From Caldilineaceae bacterium (GTDB taxonomy: Bacteria > Chloroflexota > Anaerolineae > Caldilineales > Caldilineaceae): a DNA stretch of 64,000 bases. The notes under the pieces were generated by a model, which did no database searches, was not told where the DNA came from, and saw nothing but the letters and a program-made list of their open reading frames with translations. Positions 7,271 to 61,546 of this stretch are shown here, piece after piece. The stretch's first letter is position 1. Each line of letters opens with the position of its first letter. The stretch lies in NCBI GenBank assembly GCA_034428435.1, contig DAOUHY010000265.1, forward strand, positions 16,408-80,407, given 5' to 3'. The position numbers were made by a program, and so were the translations under genes.

Positions 7271-8068
7271 ATGGGCCGGCAGTCCGCATTTGTTCTGGCT
7301 TTGTGGAAGACGAATCTTCTGAGCGCGATGGAGTACCGTGTCTCATTCCTGACGCAGGTGTTTGGAATGATGCTCAACAACGCCATCTATTTCGTCTTCT
7401 GGATCATATTTTTTGCCCGCTTCGAAGAGATAAACGGTTGGGATCTGGTCGACATGCTGTTCCTGTTCGGCGTCGTCGCGACCGGTTTCGGAGCCGGTAC
7501 ATACCTGTTCGGAAATGCGGTGCGACTGTCGTCGCTGATCGCCAACGGCCAGATGGACTACTATCTGTCGCTGCCGCGTCCCGTACTCCTGCATGCACTG
7601 GCCAGCAGCAGCAACGCGTCATCTGCGGGAGACTTCACGTACGGACTGTTCAGCTTTGGCGCCGCAATCTACTTCTCCGGTTCGTTCGGGGGCTTGATGT
7701 TACTGCGCTTTACGCTGGGCTGCCTGGCGTCAATAGTTGTACTCATCTCCTTTCTGGTCCTGGTACAGAGCCTGACTTTCTGGATTGGCAATACAAGCCT
7801 GCTGACGAGGCACGCGTTCAATGCGATTGTTACCTTTTCTCTCTATCCGATCACTCTCTTCGACGGCACGGCCAAGCTGCTGCTGTTTACGCTGATTCCG
7901 GCGGCCTTCATCGGGGCACTGCCGGCAGAGTTTGTGCGCAGTTTTGATCTGTTGCAGCTGGCCCAGATCTGCGCCGGCGGCGCGGTCTTTCTGTTGCTGT
8001 CGGTCTTCGTCTTCTACCGCGGCTTGCGCCGTTACGAGAGCGGCAGCGCGATCCAGGTGCGGATGTAG
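7271..8068 (+). CDS. ABC-2 family transporter permease (second subunit)
   Basis: 265 aa multi-pass membrane protein. The ATG is 3 nt after the previous stop. It is a paralogous architecture to 6413-7267. Confidence 0.8.
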   Translation: MGRQSAFVLALWKTNLLSAMEYRVSFLTQVFGMMLNNAIYFVFWIIFFARFEEINGWDLVDMLFLFGVVATGFGAGTYLFGNAVRLSSLIANGQMDYYLSLPRPVLLHALASSSNASSAGDFTYGLFSFGAAIYFSGSFGGLMLLRFTLGCLASIVVLISFLVLVQSLTFWIGNTSLLTRHAFNAIVTFSLYPITLFDGTAKLLLFTLIPAAFIGALPAEFVRSFDLLQLAQICAGGAVFLLLSVFVFYRGLRRYESGSAIQVRM

Positions 8069-8196
8069 GTTGCGCTCCTCGCATTCGCTTCCAGTTCAAT
8101 TGTCGACTTTTCGCCAGAATTGAAGGGCGAACAGCCATCTCATTGGACCTGCATCGGATAGAGGTCGGGGGGATTGGGGACAGATCGCTTTTTGGG

Positions 8197-8632
8197 GGTG
8201 CATCGCTGATTTGGAGTGGGAACAGTCAGGCGGGGAATCGGTGCCAGCGGTGGCGGGGGAATCGTTTACAGGCTTTTGGAGAAACGCAGGGCAGGCACGA
8301 GGGTGAGGAGAGAGTGGAGAGGAGCGAGGAGAGAGTGCCGCAGTGTAGTCTGCGGGGGACTGGCGGGACGTGGTTTGGCTGGACACTTTCGATTTGGCAC
8401 TCGTTACGAATAGCGACACCAGGTCGGCGAGGCATGTTGTAGGAGAGGGGGCGTTGCGGGGGCGGAGCCCCCGCACAAGGGAGGGCCGACTAGGCCCGAC
8501 CGCCCAGAAATGCAGTGGTCAGTAGTCAGTGGTCAGAGACGGCGCTCTGGCTGCCTCAGATTTGATCGCGGAGCGGCCATGGTTAGGTCTCTGCCAGAGG
8601 ATTGCGTTAGCTCACCCCCATTTTGGGATGCA
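8197..8632 (+). mobile_element. MITE-like non-autonomous element, copy A
   Basis: Imperfect terminal inverted repeats: 5' GGTGCATCGCTGATTTGG and 3' CCCCATTTTGGGATGCA. It is flanked by the identical 11-mer CGCTTTTTGGG at 8186-8196 and 8633-8643. It shares a 73-nt core (8434-8506) and most of its other sequence with copies at 36616-37079 and 61042-61499. No credible ORF. Confidence 0.7.
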
Positions 8633-8650
8633 CGCTTTTTGGGCAACCGT

Positions 8651-36207: not shown

Positions 36208-36615
36208 GTGGTACTCCTGAACTCCTTTCCTTTTGGACCAGAGAATCCCGAATGCGCTGTCCAATTGTAACCATTCTCTGGAGGGCCGCCTGTTGCGTTG
36301 AGAGAGCCAAATCATCGCTGGAATACCTTGGCGCATGATCCAGCCGGTACTGAATCAGTTTAGCACATGAGCAGACGACTCCCAAACTTTCGCCGTCATG
36401 TCACTATACGTAGAACCTCGTTATGGGGTCGCGTCAGGGCCTTGAGAATCCGAAGTCGCAACAGAATGCTGGGTAGATTCCGGGTGCAGAGACATGGCTC
36501 AACAGTTATCCAAGGTTCTTTTTCGGACGCGGATTCAAGAGATTGACTGGATGGGAATACGACTGGGAGACCACGGCAAGGCGCCAGGAGAATTGACGGG
36601 GCATTGCCGTGGTGT

Positions 36616-37079
36616 AAGGTGCATCCCTGATTTGGGGAGGGAACGGCCTGGCGGGGAATCAGTGCCAGCGGCGGCTGGCGTTGTATAGCGTCTTTGGGCG
36701 AGACGCAGTGCAGGCGCCGGGCCCGGCCGTACGGTGGCGTCCGTCAGTTGGGGAGGGTGCGAGGGCAGGCACATGGCCGGCACCTACGGGGATCTGATGG
36801 GACTGGCGGGACGTGGTCGGGCTGGACACCTTCGATTAGGCACCTGTTACGAACATCGACACCAGGTCGACCAGGGATGTTGTAGGAGAGGGGGCGTTGC
36901 GGGGGCGGAGCCCCCGCACAAGGGAGGGCCGACTAGGCCCGACCGCCCAAAGGCGAGGAGAGAGGGGAGAGGAGTGAGGAGAGAGACGCCGTTTCTTTTG
37001 CCTCAGAGTTGATCGCGGGGTGGCAATGGTTGGTCTGCCGCCAAAAGTATACGAGTGTTCGCCCCTATTTTGGGATGCA
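36616..37079 (+). mobile_element. MITE-like non-autonomous element, copy B
   Basis: Same family as 8197-8632. Ends are AAGGTGCATCCCTGATTTGGGG and CCCCTATTTTGGGATGCA. It is flanked by GCCGTGGTGT at 36606-36615 and 37080-37089. The 73-nt core at 36877-36949 is identical to copy A. Confidence 0.7.
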
Positions 37080-37096
37080 GCCGTGGTGTCGACCTC

Positions 37097-37125
37097 TTGA
37101 AAACAGAATTGGCTGCCCTTATAAT
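37097..37125 (+). promoter_or_regulatory. Predicted sigma70-like promoter (TTGAAA-17-TATAAT)
   Basis: Hexamers at 37097-37102 and 37120-37125. The -35 box starts after a 17-nt gap from the MITE copy B end, about 210 nt upstream of queG. Pattern match only. Confidence 0.4.
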
Positions 37126-37336
37126 GGGCCTGACTTGCTGAACGGTTACTCTGCCTACTTCAAGAGTGCAAGCGGAATCACATTCTCTAACAGTTGTGCC
37201 GGCACTGGCTCTCATGCATCAGGACGGAGTCAGATTGAGGCCGGCTGGGTAGAGAGATGCCGAGCCAAGAGTTGGGTTTGCGCGCCGTTTGATTGGCGTG
37301 AACGGAGAAGACATTCATTGACTGTGTTCCAAAAAG

Positions 37337-45502: not shown

Positions 45503-47143
45503 TCAGTTCGGATCGTACAGGAAGAACCACTTTACATTCAGGTACTCGTTATAGCCGTCGGCCTTCATGGTCTGAATGGCTGCGTTGAAGGGTGCGGTCC
45601 ACGTGCTGCCGGGCGTGAAGATCAGGCCGAACTCTTCGGTCGCCAGTGCCTCGCCCACGATCTTGAGCGCTTCCGGGTTGGCGCCGATATAGCCGCGGCC
45701 GGATGCAGCATCGACCAACACCATATCTACATCTCCGGCGATCAGGGCCTGGACAGATGCTCCAAAGCTATCGAGCAGTTGAATGCGGGGGTTGGCCTCG
45801 TCGCCGTCCAGAATGTCGTACACGGCAGTGTAGAAGCCGGTCGTGCCGGCCTGCGCCCCGATCAGCAGTGACCCGTCCTCAGCGAATGCTTGCGGCGTAT
45901 CGAAGCGGTCCTCATCGGCGCGCACCAGCATAAACTGCTGGCTGGTCATATAGGCGTCGGAGAAGTCGACAACTTCAGCGCGTTCAGCCGTGATCGTGAT
46001 GCCGTCCATGCCGACGTCGAACTGTCCTTCGGCAACGGCCTGGATCATCGCTTCCCATGAGGTGACCTGCCAGTCGACAACACAGTTGAGGCGGCGGCAG
46101 ATCTCGTTGACCGCATCATATTCCCAGCCGACGGCTTCGCCGCTGCCCGGGTCGATGAAGTTGAGCGGAATGAAGTCGTTGCCCGTAACGGCAACGATTT
46201 CCGCGCCGCCCATGTCGGGCAGGCTGTCGTAGATGTCGGCGGCATTGGGATCGGTGAGGAAGAACCAGCGAGTATTCAGGTAGTCCAGGTAGCCGTCGTC
46301 CTTCATGGTGGCTAAGGCGGCGTTAAAGGGCGCGGTCCAGGTGCTGCCGGGCGTGAAGATAAAGCCGAACTCCTCGGTCGCCAGTGCTCCGCCCACGATC
46401 TTGAGCTTTTCCGGGTTGGCGCCGATATAGCCGCGGCCGGACGCAGCGTCAACCAGCACCATGTCGACGTCGCCGGCGATCAACGCCTGCACAGATGCGC
46501 CAAAGTTGTCCAACAGCTGGATGCGGGGGTTCGCTTCGTCGCCATCCAGAATGTCGTATACGGCGGTGTAGAAGCCGGTCGTACCGGCTTGGGCACCGAT
46601 CAGCAGCGACGCATCTGCGGCGAACGCGTCCGCCGTGTCGAATCGCTCTTCGTCGGCGCGGACAAGCATGAACTGCTGGCTGGTCATGTATGCGTCGGAG
46701 AAGTCCACCACCTCGGCGCGTTCAGCCGTTATCGTGATGCCGTCCATGCCGACGTCAAACTGGCCTTCGGCCACCGCTTGTATCATCGCCTCCCAAGAGG
46801 TGACCTGCCAGTCGACAACGCAGTTGAGGCGGCGGCAGATCTCGTTGACGGCGTCATATTCCCAGCCGACGGCTTCGCCGCTGGCCGGGTCGATGAAGTT
46901 AAGCGGAATGTAGTCGTTGCCCGTAACAGCAACGATCTCCGCGCCGTCCATATCAGGGAGGCTGTCGTAGACAACGTTTTTCATGCCGGCGGGGGCGGGG
47001 GAACCGGCGGCAGAGTCCTGCGACTGGGACCCGGCCTCACTTTCCATCGCTGCGGGCGCGCCAGGGACACAGGCGCCCAAGGCAAGCGCCAGCAGCAGGA
47101 AGATAGGCAAGGGGCGTAATATCACCGCGAATATCTTATTCAT
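45503..47143 (-). CDS. Amino acid ABC transporter substrate-binding lipoprotein with two tandem near-identical binding domains
   Basis: Lipobox LALALGAC. Residues 59-300 and 305-546 are the same SBP_bac_3-like domain repeated, with about 20 differences in 242 positions by hand count. Confidence 0.93.
   Translation of the reverse strand: MNKIFAVILRPLPIFLLLALALGACVPGAPAAMESEAGSQSQDSAAGSPAPAGMKNVVYDSLPDMDGAEIVAVTGNDYIPLNFIDPASGEAVGWEYDAVNEICRRLNCVVDWQVTSWEAMIQAVAEGQFDVGMDGITITAERAEVVDFSDAYMTSQQFMLVRADEERFDTADAFAADASLLIGAQAGTTGFYTAVYDILDGDEANPRIQLLDNFGASVQALIAGDVDMVLVDAASGRGYIGANPEKLKIVGGALATEEFGFIFTPGSTWTAPFNAALATMKDDGYLDYLNTRWFFLTDPNAADIYDSLPDMGGAEIVAVTGNDFIPLNFIDPGSGEAVGWEYDAVNEICRRLNCVVDWQVTSWEAMIQAVAEGQFDVGMDGITITAERAEVVDFSDAYMTSQQFMLVRADEDRFDTPQAFAEDGSLLIGAQAGTTGFYTAVYDILDGDEANPRIQLLDSFGASVQALIAGDVDMVLVDAASGRGYIGANPEALKIVGEALATEEFGLIFTPGSTWTAPFNAAIQTMKADGYNEYLNVKWFFLYDPN
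45506..46231 (-). repeat. Intragenic direct repeat, unit 2 (second binding domain)
   Basis: See unit 1. Confidence 0.9.
46244..46969 (-). repeat. Intragenic direct repeat, unit 1 (first binding domain)
   Basis: It aligns colinearly with 45506-46231 at a 738-nt period. Many of the nucleotide differences are synonymous. Confidence 0.9.
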
Positions 47144-60832: not shown

Positions 60833-61041
60833 TGCCGAAAATCCGTTTGTGTGGAATTTAACAAACTCCCGCGAAAGTATAGCATAGCGATTTCTGATAG
60901 CGAAAGTTCGTACCCTTCGCAAACGCGTTCAAAGTGGAGGCGATGACTACATATTCGAGGGATTCGATAGGATAGGGGCGGGGCTGCTGAAAAGATCCTT
61001 CGATGCGACCCGTCAGCATGCTTGTTGAAGTCAATCGATAC

Positions 61042-61499
61042 GGGTGCATCCCAGATTTGGGGTGGGAACAGTCTGGCAGGGAATCAGTGCCAGCGGTGGC
61101 CGGGGTTGTTTGCCGTCTTTGGGCGAGGCGCAGTGCAGGCGCCAGCCCTGGCCGTACGATGGCGTCCGTCAGTTGGGGCGGGTGCGAGGGCAGGCACCTA
61201 CGGGGAATTGATAGGGACGGCGGAACGTGGTCTGGCGAAGCCCGGTCGAACAGGCACTTATCGCCAATGTCGACACCCGGTCGATAAGGCATGTTGTAGG
61301 AGAGGGGGCGTTGCGGGGGCGGAGCCCCCGCACAAGGGAGGGCCGAATAGGCCCGACCGCCCAGAACTGCAGCAGTTAGTAGTCAGTAGTTAGTGGTCAG
61401 AGACGGCGCTCATTCTGGCGGAAACTGGAATGGGAACTGACCATGGGTTGGGTGCCTCCAGAGATATACGAAAGTTCGCCCCAATATTGGGATGCAGAC
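61042..61499 (+). mobile_element. MITE-like non-autonomous element, copy C
   Basis: Same family. The 5' end is GGGTGCATCCCAGATTTGGGG and the 3' end is CCCCAATATTGGGATGCA(GAC). It is flanked by ATCGATAC at 61034-61041 and 61500-61507. The core at 61291-61363 differs from A and B at one loop position. Confidence 0.65.
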
Positions 61500-61516
61500 A
61501 TCGATACCGACGGGCT

Positions 61517-61546
61517 TTGACAGGAGATTTTGGTTCGTGCTAGAAT
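61517..61546 (+). promoter_or_regulatory. Predicted sigma70-like promoter (TTGACA-18-TAGAAT)
   Basis: Hexamers at 61517-61522 and 61541-61546. The -35 box starts after a 17-nt gap from the MITE copy C end, about 70 nt upstream of the plus-strand nuoA. Confidence 0.45.

What the first reader, a model, noticed from the sequence alone, without database searches (positions are those of the whole stretch)
36877..36949. Invariant 73-nt GC-rich double-hairpin core inside otherwise diverged copies
The 73-mer ATGTTGTAGGAGAGGGGGCGTTGCGGGGGCGGAGCCCCCGCACAAGGGAGGGCCGACTAGGCCCGACCGCCCA is identical in copies A (8434-8506) and B. Copy C (61291-61363) differs at a single position, which falls in a hairpin loop (GACTA to GAATA). 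The rest of the element shows many substitutions and indels. The core folds on paper as a Y-shape:
- outer helix GGGCG/CGCCC
- hairpin 1, TGCGGGGGC-GGA-GCCCCCGCA (9 bp)
- hairpin 2, GGGCC-GACTA-GGCCC.

It starts with GTAG followed by a GC-rich palindrome. From memory, that resembles REP sequences recognised by RAYT-type transposases. Such differential conservation implies selection or gene conversion on a functional site, either a protein-binding site or a structured RNA.
Basis: partly seen in the sequence, partly recalled or inferred. Interest (0 to 1): 0.65.

Follow-up and report, generated by a model that had tools for sequence, protein, structure and literature searches.

The report
Invariant hairpin cassette inside a MITE
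The invariant 73-mer is the centre of a roughly 460-bp miniature transposon that fills Caldilineaceae genomes, and its 59-nt double-hairpin part stays almost unchanged across copies, species and element types while the rest of the element drifts, so it is probably functional but is not a classical REP.

Summary
The 73-mer is identical at 8434-8506 and 36877-36949 and differs by one loop base at 61291-61363.

It belongs to a 440-500-bp non-autonomous transposon (MITE-like). The ends are imperfect terminal inverted repeats, GGGTGCATCCC...GGGATGCACCC, flanked by 8-bp target-site duplications. I found at least 88 loci in seven Caldilineaceae MAG assemblies.

The constrained unit is 59 nt (36891-36949), a foldable three-way junction.
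- In 37 near-full-length paralogues it shows 0.76% mismatch per site, against 12-24% for the rest of the element.
- In nine orthologues of the rpsO-queG insertion, fetched without reference to the core, 2 of 59 columns vary, against 25% in the body and 16% in the unique flank.
- At least three different element backbones carry it almost unchanged.

The 14-nt head with GTAG is not conserved. The core never occurs on its own. Rfam gives nothing, and covariation cannot be assessed because the stems never vary. REP/RAYT membership is therefore not supported.

Two unexpected properties of the carrier:
- Its orientation follows the local GC-skew sign in 79 of 83 loci, independent of gene direction.
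- Its ends lie about 18 nt from sigma-70-type -35 hexamers.

Best reading: a sequence- and structure-specific cis signal, probably read as single-stranded DNA. How it works is inferred, not shown.

The parts
36891..36949 (+). Copy B, the 59-nt constrained cassette (Y-module): outer helix GGGCG/CGCCC, hairpin 1 TGCGGGGGC-GGA-GCCCCCGCA, hairpin 2 GGGCC-GACTA-GGCCC extended by GG/CC across a GA/GA internal loop
   Evidence: Folds. Only 2 of 59 columns vary among 9 orthologues. 17 of 20 pairs never vary in 40 copies.
36877..36890 (+). Copy B, the 14-nt head ATGTTGTAGGAGAG, which contains GTAG. It is specific to one subfamily and is not constrained.
   Evidence: 13 of 16 columns vary among orthologues. 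Absent from the L094/L089 subfamily.
36616..37079 (+). Copy B, the whole MITE-like element from inverted repeat to inverted repeat (TGCATCCCTGATTTGGGG ... CCCCTATTTTGGGATGCA), in the rpsO-queG intergenic region
   Evidence: Inverted repeat I1 36620-36637 / 37062-37079. nhmmer hit 36573-37143. Flanking genes.
36606..36615 (.). Copy B, left copy of the target-site duplication (GCCGTGGTGT; the 8-bp core is GTGGTGT[A/C])
   Evidence: Direct repeat D2, 100% identical to 37080-37089.
37080..37089 (.). Copy B, right copy of the target-site duplication
36763..36787 (-). Degenerate GTAG-type REP-like hairpin in the element body (GTAGGTGCCGGCCATGTGCCTGCCC), on the opposite strand to the core
36950..36990 (+). 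Copy B, hypervariable 7-nt-periodic tract directly after the cassette. It is purine-rich GGAGAGA-type here and GGTCAGT-type in copies A and C.
   Evidence: Together with the 3' arm, 78% of columns vary among orthologues.
37097..37125 (+). Host sigma-70-like promoter (TTGAAA-17-TATAAT, 11/12) starting 18 nt after the end of copy B, upstream of queG
   Evidence: The spacing is general across copies.
8197..8632 (+). Copy A, the whole element, between an ABC-2 permease gene and an M42 peptidase gene. The 73-mer is 8434-8506 and the cassette is 8448-8506.
   Evidence: Inverted repeat 8198-8218 / 8613-8633 and flanking direct repeat CGCTTTTTGGG at 8186-8196 / 8633-8643. Also.
61042..61499 (+). Copy C, the whole element, between nuoA (minus strand) and a plus-strand ORF. 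The 73-mer is 61291-61363 and the cassette is 61305-61363. The target-site duplication ATCGATAC lies at 61034-61041 and 61500-61507.
   Evidence: Inverted repeat 61045-61062 / 61479-61496. Duplication read. Also.
61517..61546 (+). Host sigma-70-like promoter (TTGACA-18-TAGAAT, 11/12) starting 21 nt after the GCA end of copy C

Best explanation
WHAT IT IS (well supported). The 73-mer is the centre of a 440-500-bp non-autonomous DNA transposon (a MITE-like element) found here only in Caldilineaceae (Chloroflexota). The element has imperfect terminal inverted repeats (GGGTGCATCCCAGATTTGGGG... / ...CCCCATTTTGGGATGCACCC) and 8-bp target-site duplications. It usually lies with one end about 18 nt from a sigma-70-type -35 hexamer. 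Almost every copy has its G-rich strand on the locally G-rich DNA strand, which I take as the replication-defined strand. Inside it, a 59-nt cassette that can fold into a three-way junction is held nearly invariant, while the DNA immediately on both sides is the most variable part of the element.

HOW IT WORKS (inferred). The cassette is a cis-acting recognition site in which both sequence and fold matter: stems and junction bases are fixed and the loops are free. I think it is most likely read as folded single-stranded DNA on one replication strand. It would then be the asymmetric signal that ties these otherwise nearly symmetric elements to the replication fork, for mobilisation, for orientation, or for exchange between copies. 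It would be kept by purifying selection, reinforced by conversion between copies that begins or ends in it. It is not a REP.
For: Terminal inverted repeats.

Target-site duplications: 12 of 30 full copies have at least 6 of 8 identical flanking 8-mers, against 0.58 expected.

Conservation among paralogues: the 53 core bases not used as the search seed show 0.76% mismatch per site, against 11.6% and 24.5% in the 5' and 3' body. Private changes per column are 0.13 against 0.62-0.82.

Conservation among orthologues:
- In the three clean species pairs the non-seed core differs at 5 of 158 sites (tallied from three rows; its all-pair pooled rate is higher because of contig-end assembly errors). The body differs at 8-24%. 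Third codon positions of neighbouring genes differ at 12-24%, and first and second positions at 1-5%.
- In the series anchored on ribosomal protein S15, fetched without reference to the core, 2 of 59 cassette columns vary, against 58/233 in the body (P=1e-4) and 42/270 in the unique flank (P=0.01).

The cassette is carried almost unchanged by three backbones. No copy occurs outside these elements.

Tolerated variants are concentrated in the loops: GAATA/GACTA/GACCA/GCCTA, and GGA/GAA/GCA.

Strand polarity: 79 loci agree with the local GC-skew sign and 4 disagree (P=4e-19), and no locus carries copies on both strands. On a 5.58-Mb contig the orientation switches twice, about half a chromosome apart. 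Polarity is independent of gene direction: 45.8% of coding bases are on the element's strand, the flank configurations are 20 versus 19, and the skew is positive for genes on both strands.

Exchange between copies with breakpoints at the cassette: orthologues carry different head, microsatellite and 3'-arm types in all four combinations.

Orientation bias of insertion-sequence families relative to replication is an established phenomenon (PMC3971601).
Against: No cognate transposase with these inverted repeats was found. The two insertion sequences met in the loci (IS982-like and IS66-family) have unrelated ends.

The DDE-type transposons I know of with inverted repeats and target-site duplications (my own knowledge) do not use an internal hairpin or a single-stranded intermediate, and a cis signal needed only for mobility would not by itself be preserved in old, fixed copies.

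Replication direction is inferred from GC skew alone; no origin was mapped.

Both strands fold about equally well, so the fold does not say which strand acts.

Some copies have decayed or deleted cassettes (L076, L006:3474-3607, L042/L052, L093), so not every copy is constrained.

No empty site was recovered.

The orthologue pairs came from loci chosen for an intact 19-mer seed.
Confidence: 0.45

Rival explanations
1. Host-level double-stranded DNA site. The two perfect palindromes (TGCGGGGGC-N3-GCCCCCGCA and GGGCC-N5-GGCCC) are operators for a dimeric DNA-binding protein (a regulator or nucleoid protein). The transposon has carried them to the upstream regions of many promoters, and each copy is kept by host selection. 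The strand polarity would then be a separate property of the insertion mechanism.
For: Constraint in place is as strong as at first and second codon positions. The spacer or loop bases vary while the half-sites do not. The elements lie just upstream of promoters, and convergent gene flanks are rare (3 of 71).
Against: All 59 bases are fixed, including the junction bases between the palindromes, which is much longer than a usual operator. Distance and orientation relative to the promoter are not fixed: either end can face it, so the cassette lies roughly 150-330 bp away (my estimate from element geometry). This reading does not explain the polarity.
Confidence: 0.2
2. Concerted evolution without function. 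The cassette is simply the longest perfectly identical tract shared by more than 100 copies. Ectopic gene conversion, possibly triggered by breaks or stalls at the hairpins, keeps re-homogenising it while the diverged body escapes.
For: Orthologous copies are mosaics with exchange points at the cassette, and all four head-by-microsatellite combinations occur. Body divergence between orthologues does not track third-codon-position divergence. The flanks of the cassette are hypervariable.
Against: The boundaries of invariance are sharp and coincide exactly with the foot of the outer helix. Conversion tracts would be expected to blur them and to homogenise neighbouring DNA, yet the neighbours are the most variable part (81% and 78% variable columns). 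Loop positions still vary freely within the tract. Backbones that are otherwise only 65-70% alike or unalignable keep the same cassette.
Confidence: 0.15
3. Structured RNA. The cassette is the functional core of a small RNA, an RNA-stability or processing element, or a small ribozyme or aptamer built on a three-way junction. It would be transcribed by read-through or from a non-canonical promoter.
For: The RNA fold is very stable (-41.9 kcal/mol, z -4.0). Invariant junction bases with variable terminal loops, and a tandem GA/GA internal loop, are typical of RNA motifs (my knowledge). One subfamily has a C-to-T change that gives G.U on the plus strand only. Co-orientation with replication is also expected of heavily transcribed units.
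Against: No Rfam family matches, even at E<=10. No sigma-70-like promoter is conserved inside the element on either strand. Orientation relative to neighbouring genes is random (20 versus 19), so read-through would give sense RNA only half the time. There is no terminator-like tail. There is no covariation.
Confidence: 0.12
4. REP/REPIN-type substrate of a RAYT (Y1 HUH transposase). The GTAG head plus the GC-rich palindrome would be recognised as single-stranded DNA at the fork.
For: GTAG lies upstream of a GC-rich palindromic structure in the window copies. Polarity relative to replication is expected of HUH enzymes acting on single-stranded DNA (PMC6006769). A true GTAG hairpin family (GTAGGGGC-NNN-C-CTTGT-G-NNN-GCCC, with compensatory stem variants) exists in the same genomes and is also fully polarised (53 of 53). 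GTAG repeats have been reported in Chloroflexi (PMC3733652).
Against: The defining features were tested and not met. GTAG is not 0-2 nt from a stem of at least 7 bp. The head is lost in 6 of 9 orthologues and in a whole subfamily while the cassette stays intact. No solo or paired units exist. The carrier has inverted repeats and 8-bp duplications. The core's GTAG is on the opposite strand to the genuine REP-like family. No Y1 transposase was seen in 770 kb, though that is only weak evidence.
Confidence: 0.07

Closest known systems
Bacterial MITEs (Correia/NEMIS of Neisseria, ERIC, RUP, Nezha)
   Same: Non-coding, high copy number, terminal inverted repeats, fixed-length target-site duplication, intergenic and promoter-proximal location, able to fold. 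The definition used is from PMC3733652.
   Different: Larger: 440-500 bp against the usual 70-300 bp. It has an internal cassette more conserved than its own terminal inverted repeats, near-total strand polarity relative to GC skew, and a fixed distance to -35 hexamers. No autonomous partner has been identified.
REP / REPIN elements mobilised by RAYTs
   Same: GC-rich palindromes present in more than 100 copies, a GTAG motif nearby, a dominant master sequence, and a likely single-stranded mode of action.
   Different: The cassette is a branched 59-nt structure, never solo or in inverted pairs, and always embedded at one position of an element with inverted repeats and target duplications. GTAG is wrongly placed and dispensable.
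IS200/IS605 family and derived palindrome-associated elements (PATEs)
   Same: Orientation tied to the replication fork, and dependence on DNA hairpins read in single-stranded DNA (PMC6006769; PMC3971601).
   Different: Those elements have no terminal inverted repeats and make no target duplication. Their hairpins are subterminal, not central.
ISL3 and IS66 families (DDE transposons with 8-bp target duplications)
   Same: 8-bp duplication (from my own knowledge of these families). ISL3 shows a consistent orientation bias relative to replication (PMC3971601).
   Different: The IS66-family element met in the loci has GTAA-type ends unrelated to GGGTGCATCCC. No ISL3 transposase was seen. Any link is a lead only.
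Single-strand initiation / primosome assembly sites (phiX174-type PAS, plasmid ssi signals)
   Same: Roughly 60-70-nt multi-hairpin signals that act only as single-stranded DNA of one strand and only in one orientation relative to the fork (from my own knowledge).
   Different: There is no sequence similarity and no functional evidence here. This is a model for how the cassette could work, not a membership claim.

Membership tests
MITE (non-autonomous transposon with terminal inverted repeats) | Terminal inverted repeats | tested here: met
   18-21-nt arms in all three window copies. Conserved in 40 aligned copies. The terminal 12 nt are identical at both ends.
MITE (non-autonomous transposon with terminal inverted repeats) | Target-site duplication of fixed length | tested here: met
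   8 bp. 12 of 30 copies have at least 6 of 8 matches, against 0.58 expected from shuffled pairing. Window examples.
MITE (non-autonomous transposon with terminal inverted repeats) | Small, non-coding, many dispersed copies | tested here: met
   392-502 bp between the landmarks in TIR-to-TIR copies; the 482-483 bp values for window copy A come from a mislocated landmark. At least 88 loci in seven MAG assemblies. The invariance shows no synonymous-site pattern, so it is not coding.
MITE (non-autonomous transposon with terminal inverted repeats) | A cognate autonomous element with the same ends | tested here: inconclusive
   None in the 770 kb held or among the metagenome hits. The IS982-like and IS66-family elements found have different ends. 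The complete genomes could not be scanned.
MITE (non-autonomous transposon with terminal inverted repeats) | Presence/absence polymorphism (empty sites) | tested here: inconclusive
   All 10 loci anchored on S15 are filled. For the ABC2-anchored relative L106 only the intergenic length matches the window; the element itself was not checked there.
REP / REPIN (RAYT-associated) | GTAG or GTGG 0-2 nt 5' of the hairpin (PMC6006769) | tested here: not met
   GTAG lies 4 nt from the outer helix and 13 nt from hairpin 1. It is lost in 6 of 9 orthologues and in the L094 subfamily.
REP / REPIN (RAYT-associated) | Simple hairpin with a fully paired basal stem of 7-20 nt and a loop of 2-5 nt; unit length 20-40 nt | tested here: not met
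   The cassette is a branched 59-nt three-way junction with a 5-6-bp basal helix.
REP / REPIN (RAYT-associated) | Dispersed as independent units or inverted pairs | tested here: not met
   All 98 core hits lie inside the larger element. No solo hairpin 1 was found.
REP / REPIN (RAYT-associated) | A RAYT gene flanked by the repeats | tested here: inconclusive
   tblastn with an IS200 TnpA sequence recalled from memory found nothing in 770 kb. A single-copy gene would probably be missed in that sample.
IS200/IS605-derived palindrome-associated element | No inverted repeats, no target duplication, subterminal hairpins | tested here: not met
   Inverted repeats and 8-bp duplications are present and the hairpins are central.
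Any curated RNA family (Rfam 15) | Covariance-model match | tested here: not met
   No hit at gathering score in 64 kb. At E<=10 only chance matches appear, 12-17 bits against thresholds of 45-100. No tRNA or tmRNA.
Intrinsic terminator | GC-rich hairpin followed by a T/U run | tested here: not met
   No terminator-like site at the core in copies A, B or C.

The most novel reading that the evidence does not exclude
The 59-nt cassette is a previously undescribed strand-specific nucleic-acid signal. It would be either a single-stranded-DNA three-way junction read at the replication fork (a priming, restart or transposase-loading site) or a new small catalytic or protein-binding RNA. A transposon that targets the zone just upstream of -35 hexamers and orients itself by replication direction would have spread it to over a hundred promoter-upstream sites per genome, and the host would now maintain it by selection at each site.
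Probability: 0.12. Interest if true: 0.85.

Novelty: new variant of a known kind. Interest (0 to 1): 0.6.

Why it matters
MITEs are usually treated as decaying junk whose only constrained parts are their ends. Here the reverse holds. An internal 59-nt foldable cassette is more conserved than the terminal inverted repeats. It evolves as slowly as first and second codon positions in copies that have sat at the same site since species diverged, and it is shared by otherwise unrelated backbones.

The carrier also has near-absolute orientation relative to the replication-linked strand and a fixed distance to promoter -35 boxes. Together these give a tractable natural system for three questions:
- how a transposon with inverted repeats and target duplications senses replication direction;
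- how a bacterial transposon targets promoters;
- whether mobile elements can spread a selected cis signal across a genome.

There is a practical point too. The element breaks short-read assemblies of these MAGs, because many contigs end inside the cassette.

Tried and rejected
- Known RNA families: Rfam at gathering score over the whole window and at E<=10 over copy B gave only chance hits. ARAGORN found no tRNA or tmRNA.
- Terminator or promoter inside the element: none conserved.
- Whole-element RNA structure: RNAalifold on 40 copies gave a covariation term of -0.69 kcal/mol and no convincing long-range helices.
- Covariation in the cassette: impossible to assess, since 17 of 20 pairs never vary.
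- Protein coding: the invariance has no synonymous-site pattern, and ORFs across the core are frame accidents.
- Solo cores or solo hairpin 1: none.
- Autonomous partner: a scan for the inverted repeat in the held loci found only a roughly 105-bp mini-element with the same ends. Multi-copy DNA in the loci turned out to be an IS982-like and an IS66-family element with unrelated ends.
- Metagenome scan with the 20-nt inverted repeat: 7 stretches, of which 4 were real copies (one diverged subfamily) and 3 were unrelated matches to the repeat alone or to short stretches.
- RAYT search by tblastn: nothing, but uninformative.
- Empty sites: none found; a NuoA look-up was not on record.
- Gene orientation as the cause of the polarity: rejected.
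- A regex meant to find flipped-loop variants only matched reverse complements of normal copies, so I discarded it.
- Literature searches for a described Caldilineaceae or Chloroflexi element of this kind found none.
Full report
1. THE OBSERVATION

A search for the 73-mer with up to three mismatches finds exactly three sites, all on the plus strand. Sites 8434-8506 and 36877-36949 are identical. Site 61291-61363 has one mismatch, GACTA to GAATA. No match occurs in 100 shuffles.

The DNA around the three sites is homologous but much less alike. Repeat blocks are 81-83% and 67-71% identical. A three-way alignment has 69% mean column identity with many indels, and the core stands out as an unbroken run of conserved columns.

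The proposed Y-shaped fold is the minimum-free-energy structure for RNA (-41.9 kcal/mol, z = -4.0). For single-stranded DNA the 59-mer gives -22.0 kcal/mol, z = -3.3. The complementary strand folds almost as well.

2. WHAT THE CORE SITS IN

The homologous region runs about 440-465 bp in the window: A about 8197-8632, B 36616-37079, C 61042-61499. Each copy begins TGCATCCC(A/T)GATTTGGGG and ends CCCC(N)AT(T/A)TTGGGATGCA, an 18-21-nt imperfect inverted repeat. Each is bracketed by a short direct repeat:
- CGCTTTTTGGG at 8186-8196 and 8633-8643;
- GCCGTGGTGT at 36606-36615 and 37080-37089;
- ATCGATAC on both sides of copy C.

All three copies are intergenic and on the plus strand. The window contains no tRNA genes and no Rfam family at gathering score. 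A permissive Rfam scan of copy B gives only chance matches.

3. THE FAMILY ELSEWHERE

Every stretch is in a Caldilineaceae MAG record. Seven assemblies are represented, two of them on multi-megabase contigs. Many short-read contigs end inside the core, often with poly-G/C assembly errors.

A profile built from the three window copies finds 111 hits in these loci plus the window. Full-length copies span profile positions about 42-518.

With the element boundaries set at GGG|TGCATCC...GGATGCA|CCC, 12 of 30 full copies have at least 6 of 8 identical flanking 8-mers. Shuffled pairing gives 0.58. Several further copies match after a 1-2-nt shift.

Inverted repeats, an 8-bp target duplication, small size, no coding pattern and high copy number together define a MITE-like non-autonomous transposon.

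I could not find its autonomous partner.
- A roughly 105-bp mini-element shares the same ends (L021:3155-3260).
- The only transposase genes met are an IS982-like element (L084:2930-3944) and an IS66-family element (L037/L061).
- Both have unrelated ends, and both lie in the heptad repeat tract of a MITE.

4. HOW CONSERVED THE CORE IS, AND WHICH PART

Paralogues. Among about 90 seeded copies the 73-mer is nearly invariant. The common variants are position 1 (A/G), the hairpin-2 loop (GAATA in most copies, also GACTA, GACCA, GCCTA), the hairpin-1 loop (GGA, GAA), and the last base.

The loci were chosen by a 19-nt seed, so the fair test uses the 53 core bases outside that seed. In 37 near-full-length copies these show 0.76% mismatch per site, against 11.6% in the 5' body and 24.5% in the 3' body. 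Private changes per column are 0.13 against 0.62-0.82. The 40-copy alignment shows the same by eye.

Orthologous pairs. Several insertions are shared between different species-level MAGs, with the same flanks. In the three clean pairs:
- the non-seed core differs at 5 of 158 sites (3.2%; my tally from three rows, whose pooled all-pair figure is inflated by contig-end errors), mostly in the hairpin-2 loop or the last bases;
- the element body differs at 8-24%;
- third codon positions of neighbouring genes differ at 12-24%, and first and second positions at 1-5%.
The body therefore evolves at about the neutral rate, and the core evolves like constrained codon positions.

An unbiased series. I fetched loci by exact identity of ribosomal protein S15, the gene next to copy B. 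All ten loci returned carry the element at the same site. Across nine alignable orthologues the proportion of variable columns is:

| Region | Variable columns |
|---|---|
| Unique left flank | 42/270 (16%) |
| 5' body | 58/233 (25%) |
| 14-nt head with GTAG | 13/16 (81%) |
| 59-nt cassette (36891-36949) | 2/59 (3%) |
| Heptad tract plus 3' arm | 82/105 (78%) |

Fisher tests give P = 1e-4 for cassette versus body and P = 0.01 for cassette versus flank.

The constrained unit is therefore the 59-nt Y-module. The GTAG head is not part of it.

Other backbones. A subfamily found through the inverted repeat in metagenomes has a very different body and no ATGTTGTAGGAGAG head. It keeps GGGGCGTTGCGGGGGCGCAGCCCCTGCACAAGGGAGGGCCGAAGGCCCGACCGCCCA, with one G.T-compatible stem change and altered loops (GGA to GCA; GAATA shortened to GAA).

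A third backbone (L054, L020, L075) has an unrelated 5' body of about 250 nt that is only about 65-70% alike among its members. It joins the same cassette at the same boundary, and the cassette is nearly invariant among its three members.

Limits of the constraint. The cassette never occurs outside these elements: all 98 core hits are inside them, and there is no solo hairpin 1. Some copies have decayed or deleted cassettes: L076, L006:3474-3607, the orthologous pair L042/L052, and L093. The constraint is therefore strong but not universal.

5. STRUCTURE: RNA OR DNA

Seventeen of the 20 predicted pairs never vary in 40 copies, and the covariation score is zero. The fold can be neither supported nor refuted this way. 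What can be said is that tolerated changes are concentrated in the two terminal loops, while stems and junction bases are fixed. RNAalifold finds no conserved structure for the whole element (covariation term -0.69 kcal/mol).

Four results argue against an RNA role:
- no Rfam match;
- no sigma-70-like promoter conserved inside the element on either strand;
- no terminator-like tail;
- no preferred orientation relative to neighbouring genes.

6. TWO UNEXPECTED PROPERTIES OF THE CARRIER

(a) Strand polarity.
- With the element masked, its strand agrees with the sign of the GC skew of its 8-kb locus in 79 loci and disagrees in 4. Five loci have |skew| below 0.02, and no locus has copies on both strands. 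The binomial P is 4e-19 (per-hit count 105 of 111).
- On the 5.58-Mb contig, copies are '+' from 0.02 to 1.76 Mb, '-' from 2.2 to 4.56 Mb, and '+' again from 4.79 Mb. These switches are about half a chromosome apart.
- The two positional exceptions still match their local skew. The second long contig behaves the same way.
- In the window all three copies are '+' and the cumulative skew rises throughout.
- Gene direction does not explain this. Only 45.8% of coding bases share the element's strand. The skew measured on the element's strand is positive for genes of both orientations (0.13 and 0.087). Elements followed by a co-oriented gene (20) are as common as the reverse arrangement (19).
- Orientation bias relative to replication is documented for several insertion-sequence families, including IS200/IS605, IS91, ISL3 and IS110, and has been argued to be set at insertion (PMC3971601).
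- Replication direction is inferred here from skew only.

(b) Position relative to promoters.
- I aligned flanks on the ...GGGATGCA end. A sigma-70-like promoter scoring at least 9 of 12 is present in 17 of 47 flanks at the 3' end and 10 of 46 at the 5' end. The -35 hexamer starts at offset 17-20 in all 17 of the 3'-end cases and in 8 of the 10 5'-end cases.
- In random 70-nt pieces of the same loci the frequency is 1.35%.
- In the window: TTGAAA-17-TATAAT at 37097-37125, TTGACA-18-TAGAAT at 61517-61546, and a weaker TTGCTC-17-TAGCAT after copy A that I read by eye.
- Convergent gene flanks are rare, 3 of 71.
- The duplicated 8 bp therefore lies just upstream of -35. A target preference for ...N7-TTGAC, with selection then removing insertions inside genes, would be enough to explain this. 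Recognition of RNA polymerase bound at the promoter is also possible.

7. EXCHANGE BETWEEN COPIES

The nine orthologues of copy B carry three head types, two heptad-tract types (GGAGAGA-like and GGTCAGT-like) and several 3'-arm types that match the arms of other loci. All four head-by-tract combinations occur. Recombination or ectopic conversion with breakpoints at or next to the cassette has therefore taken place. This may be a consequence of the cassette being the longest identical tract, or it may contribute to its uniformity.

8. THE REP QUESTION

The working definition of a REP requires GTAG/GTGG 0-2 nt 5' of a fully paired stem of 7-20 nt with a 2-5-nt loop (PMC6006769; PMC3733652). The core fails on four counts:
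- the position and persistence of GTAG;
- its branched architecture;
- the absence of independent dispersal;
- a carrier that makes target duplications.

A different sequence in these genomes does meet the definition: GTAGGGGC-NNN-C-CTTGT-G-NNN-GCCC, with compensatory stem variants (CAGG/CCTG, CACC/GGTG, CGCC/GGCG). It occurs singly, in tandem arrays of about 72 nt, and as a degenerate copy in the MITE body (window 36763-36787, minus strand). All 53 instances lie on the strand opposite to the local MITE plus strand. No Y1 transposase was seen in the 770 kb held, which is uninformative for a single-copy gene.

9. INTERPRETATION

Shown:
- the core is the central cassette of a MITE-like family;
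- the 59-nt cassette is constrained far more than the element body, its own terminal inverted repeats and the unique intergenic flanks;
- it is shared by several backbones;
- the carrier is polarised relative to GC skew and lies at a fixed distance from -35 boxes.

Inferred:
- Both sequence and fold are read, because stems and junction bases are fixed while loops are free.
- The acting form is more likely DNA than RNA, because polarity follows the replication-linked strand and not transcription.
- Since the terminal repeats are nearly symmetric, this asymmetric cassette is the best candidate for the feature that couples the element to the fork.

What remains unexplained is why old, fixed copies keep it. 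That needs either a benefit to the host at each locus (the operator or architectural-site rival) or continued homogenisation between copies (the concerted-evolution rival).

I put about 0.9 on the identity as a MITE core and about 0.35 on the single-stranded-DNA cis-signal mechanism. The combined confidence is 0.45.

10. NOVELTY AND SCORE

The kind of element, a MITE, is known. Three things are not described in the papers I could search:
- an internal cassette conserved like first and second codon positions across species and backbones;
- near-absolute replichore polarity;
- promoter-proximal spacing.

I rate it a new variant of a known kind, with interest 0.6.

Noticed in passing
window 37097-37125 and 61517-61546; loci L001-L088, flanks of element ends: Element ends lie at a fixed distance from sigma-70-like promoters. 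The -35 hexamer starts 17-20 nt beyond ...GGGATGCA, which is 3 nt of inverted repeat, the 8-bp target duplication and about 7 nt. A promoter scoring at least 9 of 12 is present in 36% of 3'-end flanks and 22% of 5'-end flanks, against 1.35% of random pieces. Either end can face the promoter.
   Followed up: yes
loci L001-L088; contigs CBDETM010000002.1 and OZ244818.1; whole window: Element orientation follows the local GC-skew sign in 79 of 83 loci (P=4e-19). On a 5.58-Mb contig it switches twice, about half a chromosome apart. It is independent of gene direction.
   Followed up: yes
window 36763-36787 (-); L019:4167-4556, L067:1602-2130, L036:2778-2943, L052:7343-7499, and others: A true GTAG-type REP-like hairpin family, GTAGGGGC-NNN-C-CTTGT-G-NNN-GCCC, with compensatory stem variants. 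It occurs singly, in tandem arrays of about 72 nt, and inside the MITE body. All 53 instances lie on the strand opposite to the local MITE plus strand.
   Followed up: partly
L021:3155-3260; also L006 from about 2742 and L077 from about 5435: A mini-element of about 105 bp with the same terminal inverted repeats but no cassette. In L006 and L077 it lies tail to tail against the 3' end of a full MITE.
   Followed up: partly
L021:4164-4212; L039 near 7878-7960: A sister inverted-repeat type (GTGCAGTCCAAAATGGGGGG) with a REP-like GTAG hairpin right next to it. This suggests a wider group of related elements with inverted-repeat ends.
   Followed up: no
L054:650-1110, L020:5100-5512, L075:6260-6597: A chimeric backbone. 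An unrelated 5' body of about 250 nt (65-70% alike, starting GGTAACTGCTAAG, which recalls the IS66-like end GTAACTACTAAGCC) is joined exactly at the 5' edge of a nearly invariant cassette, followed by the usual 3' arm.
   Followed up: partly
L084:2930-3944; L037:1-1483 with L061:1-987: Two unrelated insertion sequences have each inserted into the heptad repeat tract just after a cassette. One is IS982-like (DDE_Tnp_1). The other is IS66-family (DDE_Tnp_IS66, zf-IS66) with ends GTAACTACTAAGCC.
   Followed up: partly
window 36950-36990, 8507-8540, 61364-61400; alignment A2 columns 373-465: A hypervariable 7-nt-periodic tract lies directly 3' of the cassette. Its types include GGTCAGT, GGAGAGA, AGGGGCC/AGGGGTT and AGTTTTT. 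Repeat number and type differ even between orthologous copies.
   Followed up: partly
L003, L018, L019, L028, L030, L033, L047, L057, L060, L065, L076, L086 (contig ends): Many short-read contigs end inside the cassette, often with poly-G/poly-C errors. The element is a systematic assembly breakpoint in these MAGs, and such copies must be left out of divergence counts.
   Followed up: partly
window 45507-45806 and 46245-46544: Two 300-nt direct repeats, 82% identical and 738 nt apart, inside the 546-aa minus-strand ORF 45503-47143. This looks like an internal duplication in a protein gene.
   Followed up: no
whole window and loci: The GC skew is strong (about 0.09-0.13 on the element's strand) for genes on both strands. 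Slightly more coding sequence (54%) lies on the C-rich strand. In the window 31 of 51 called genes are on the minus strand although the skew is positive throughout.
   Followed up: no
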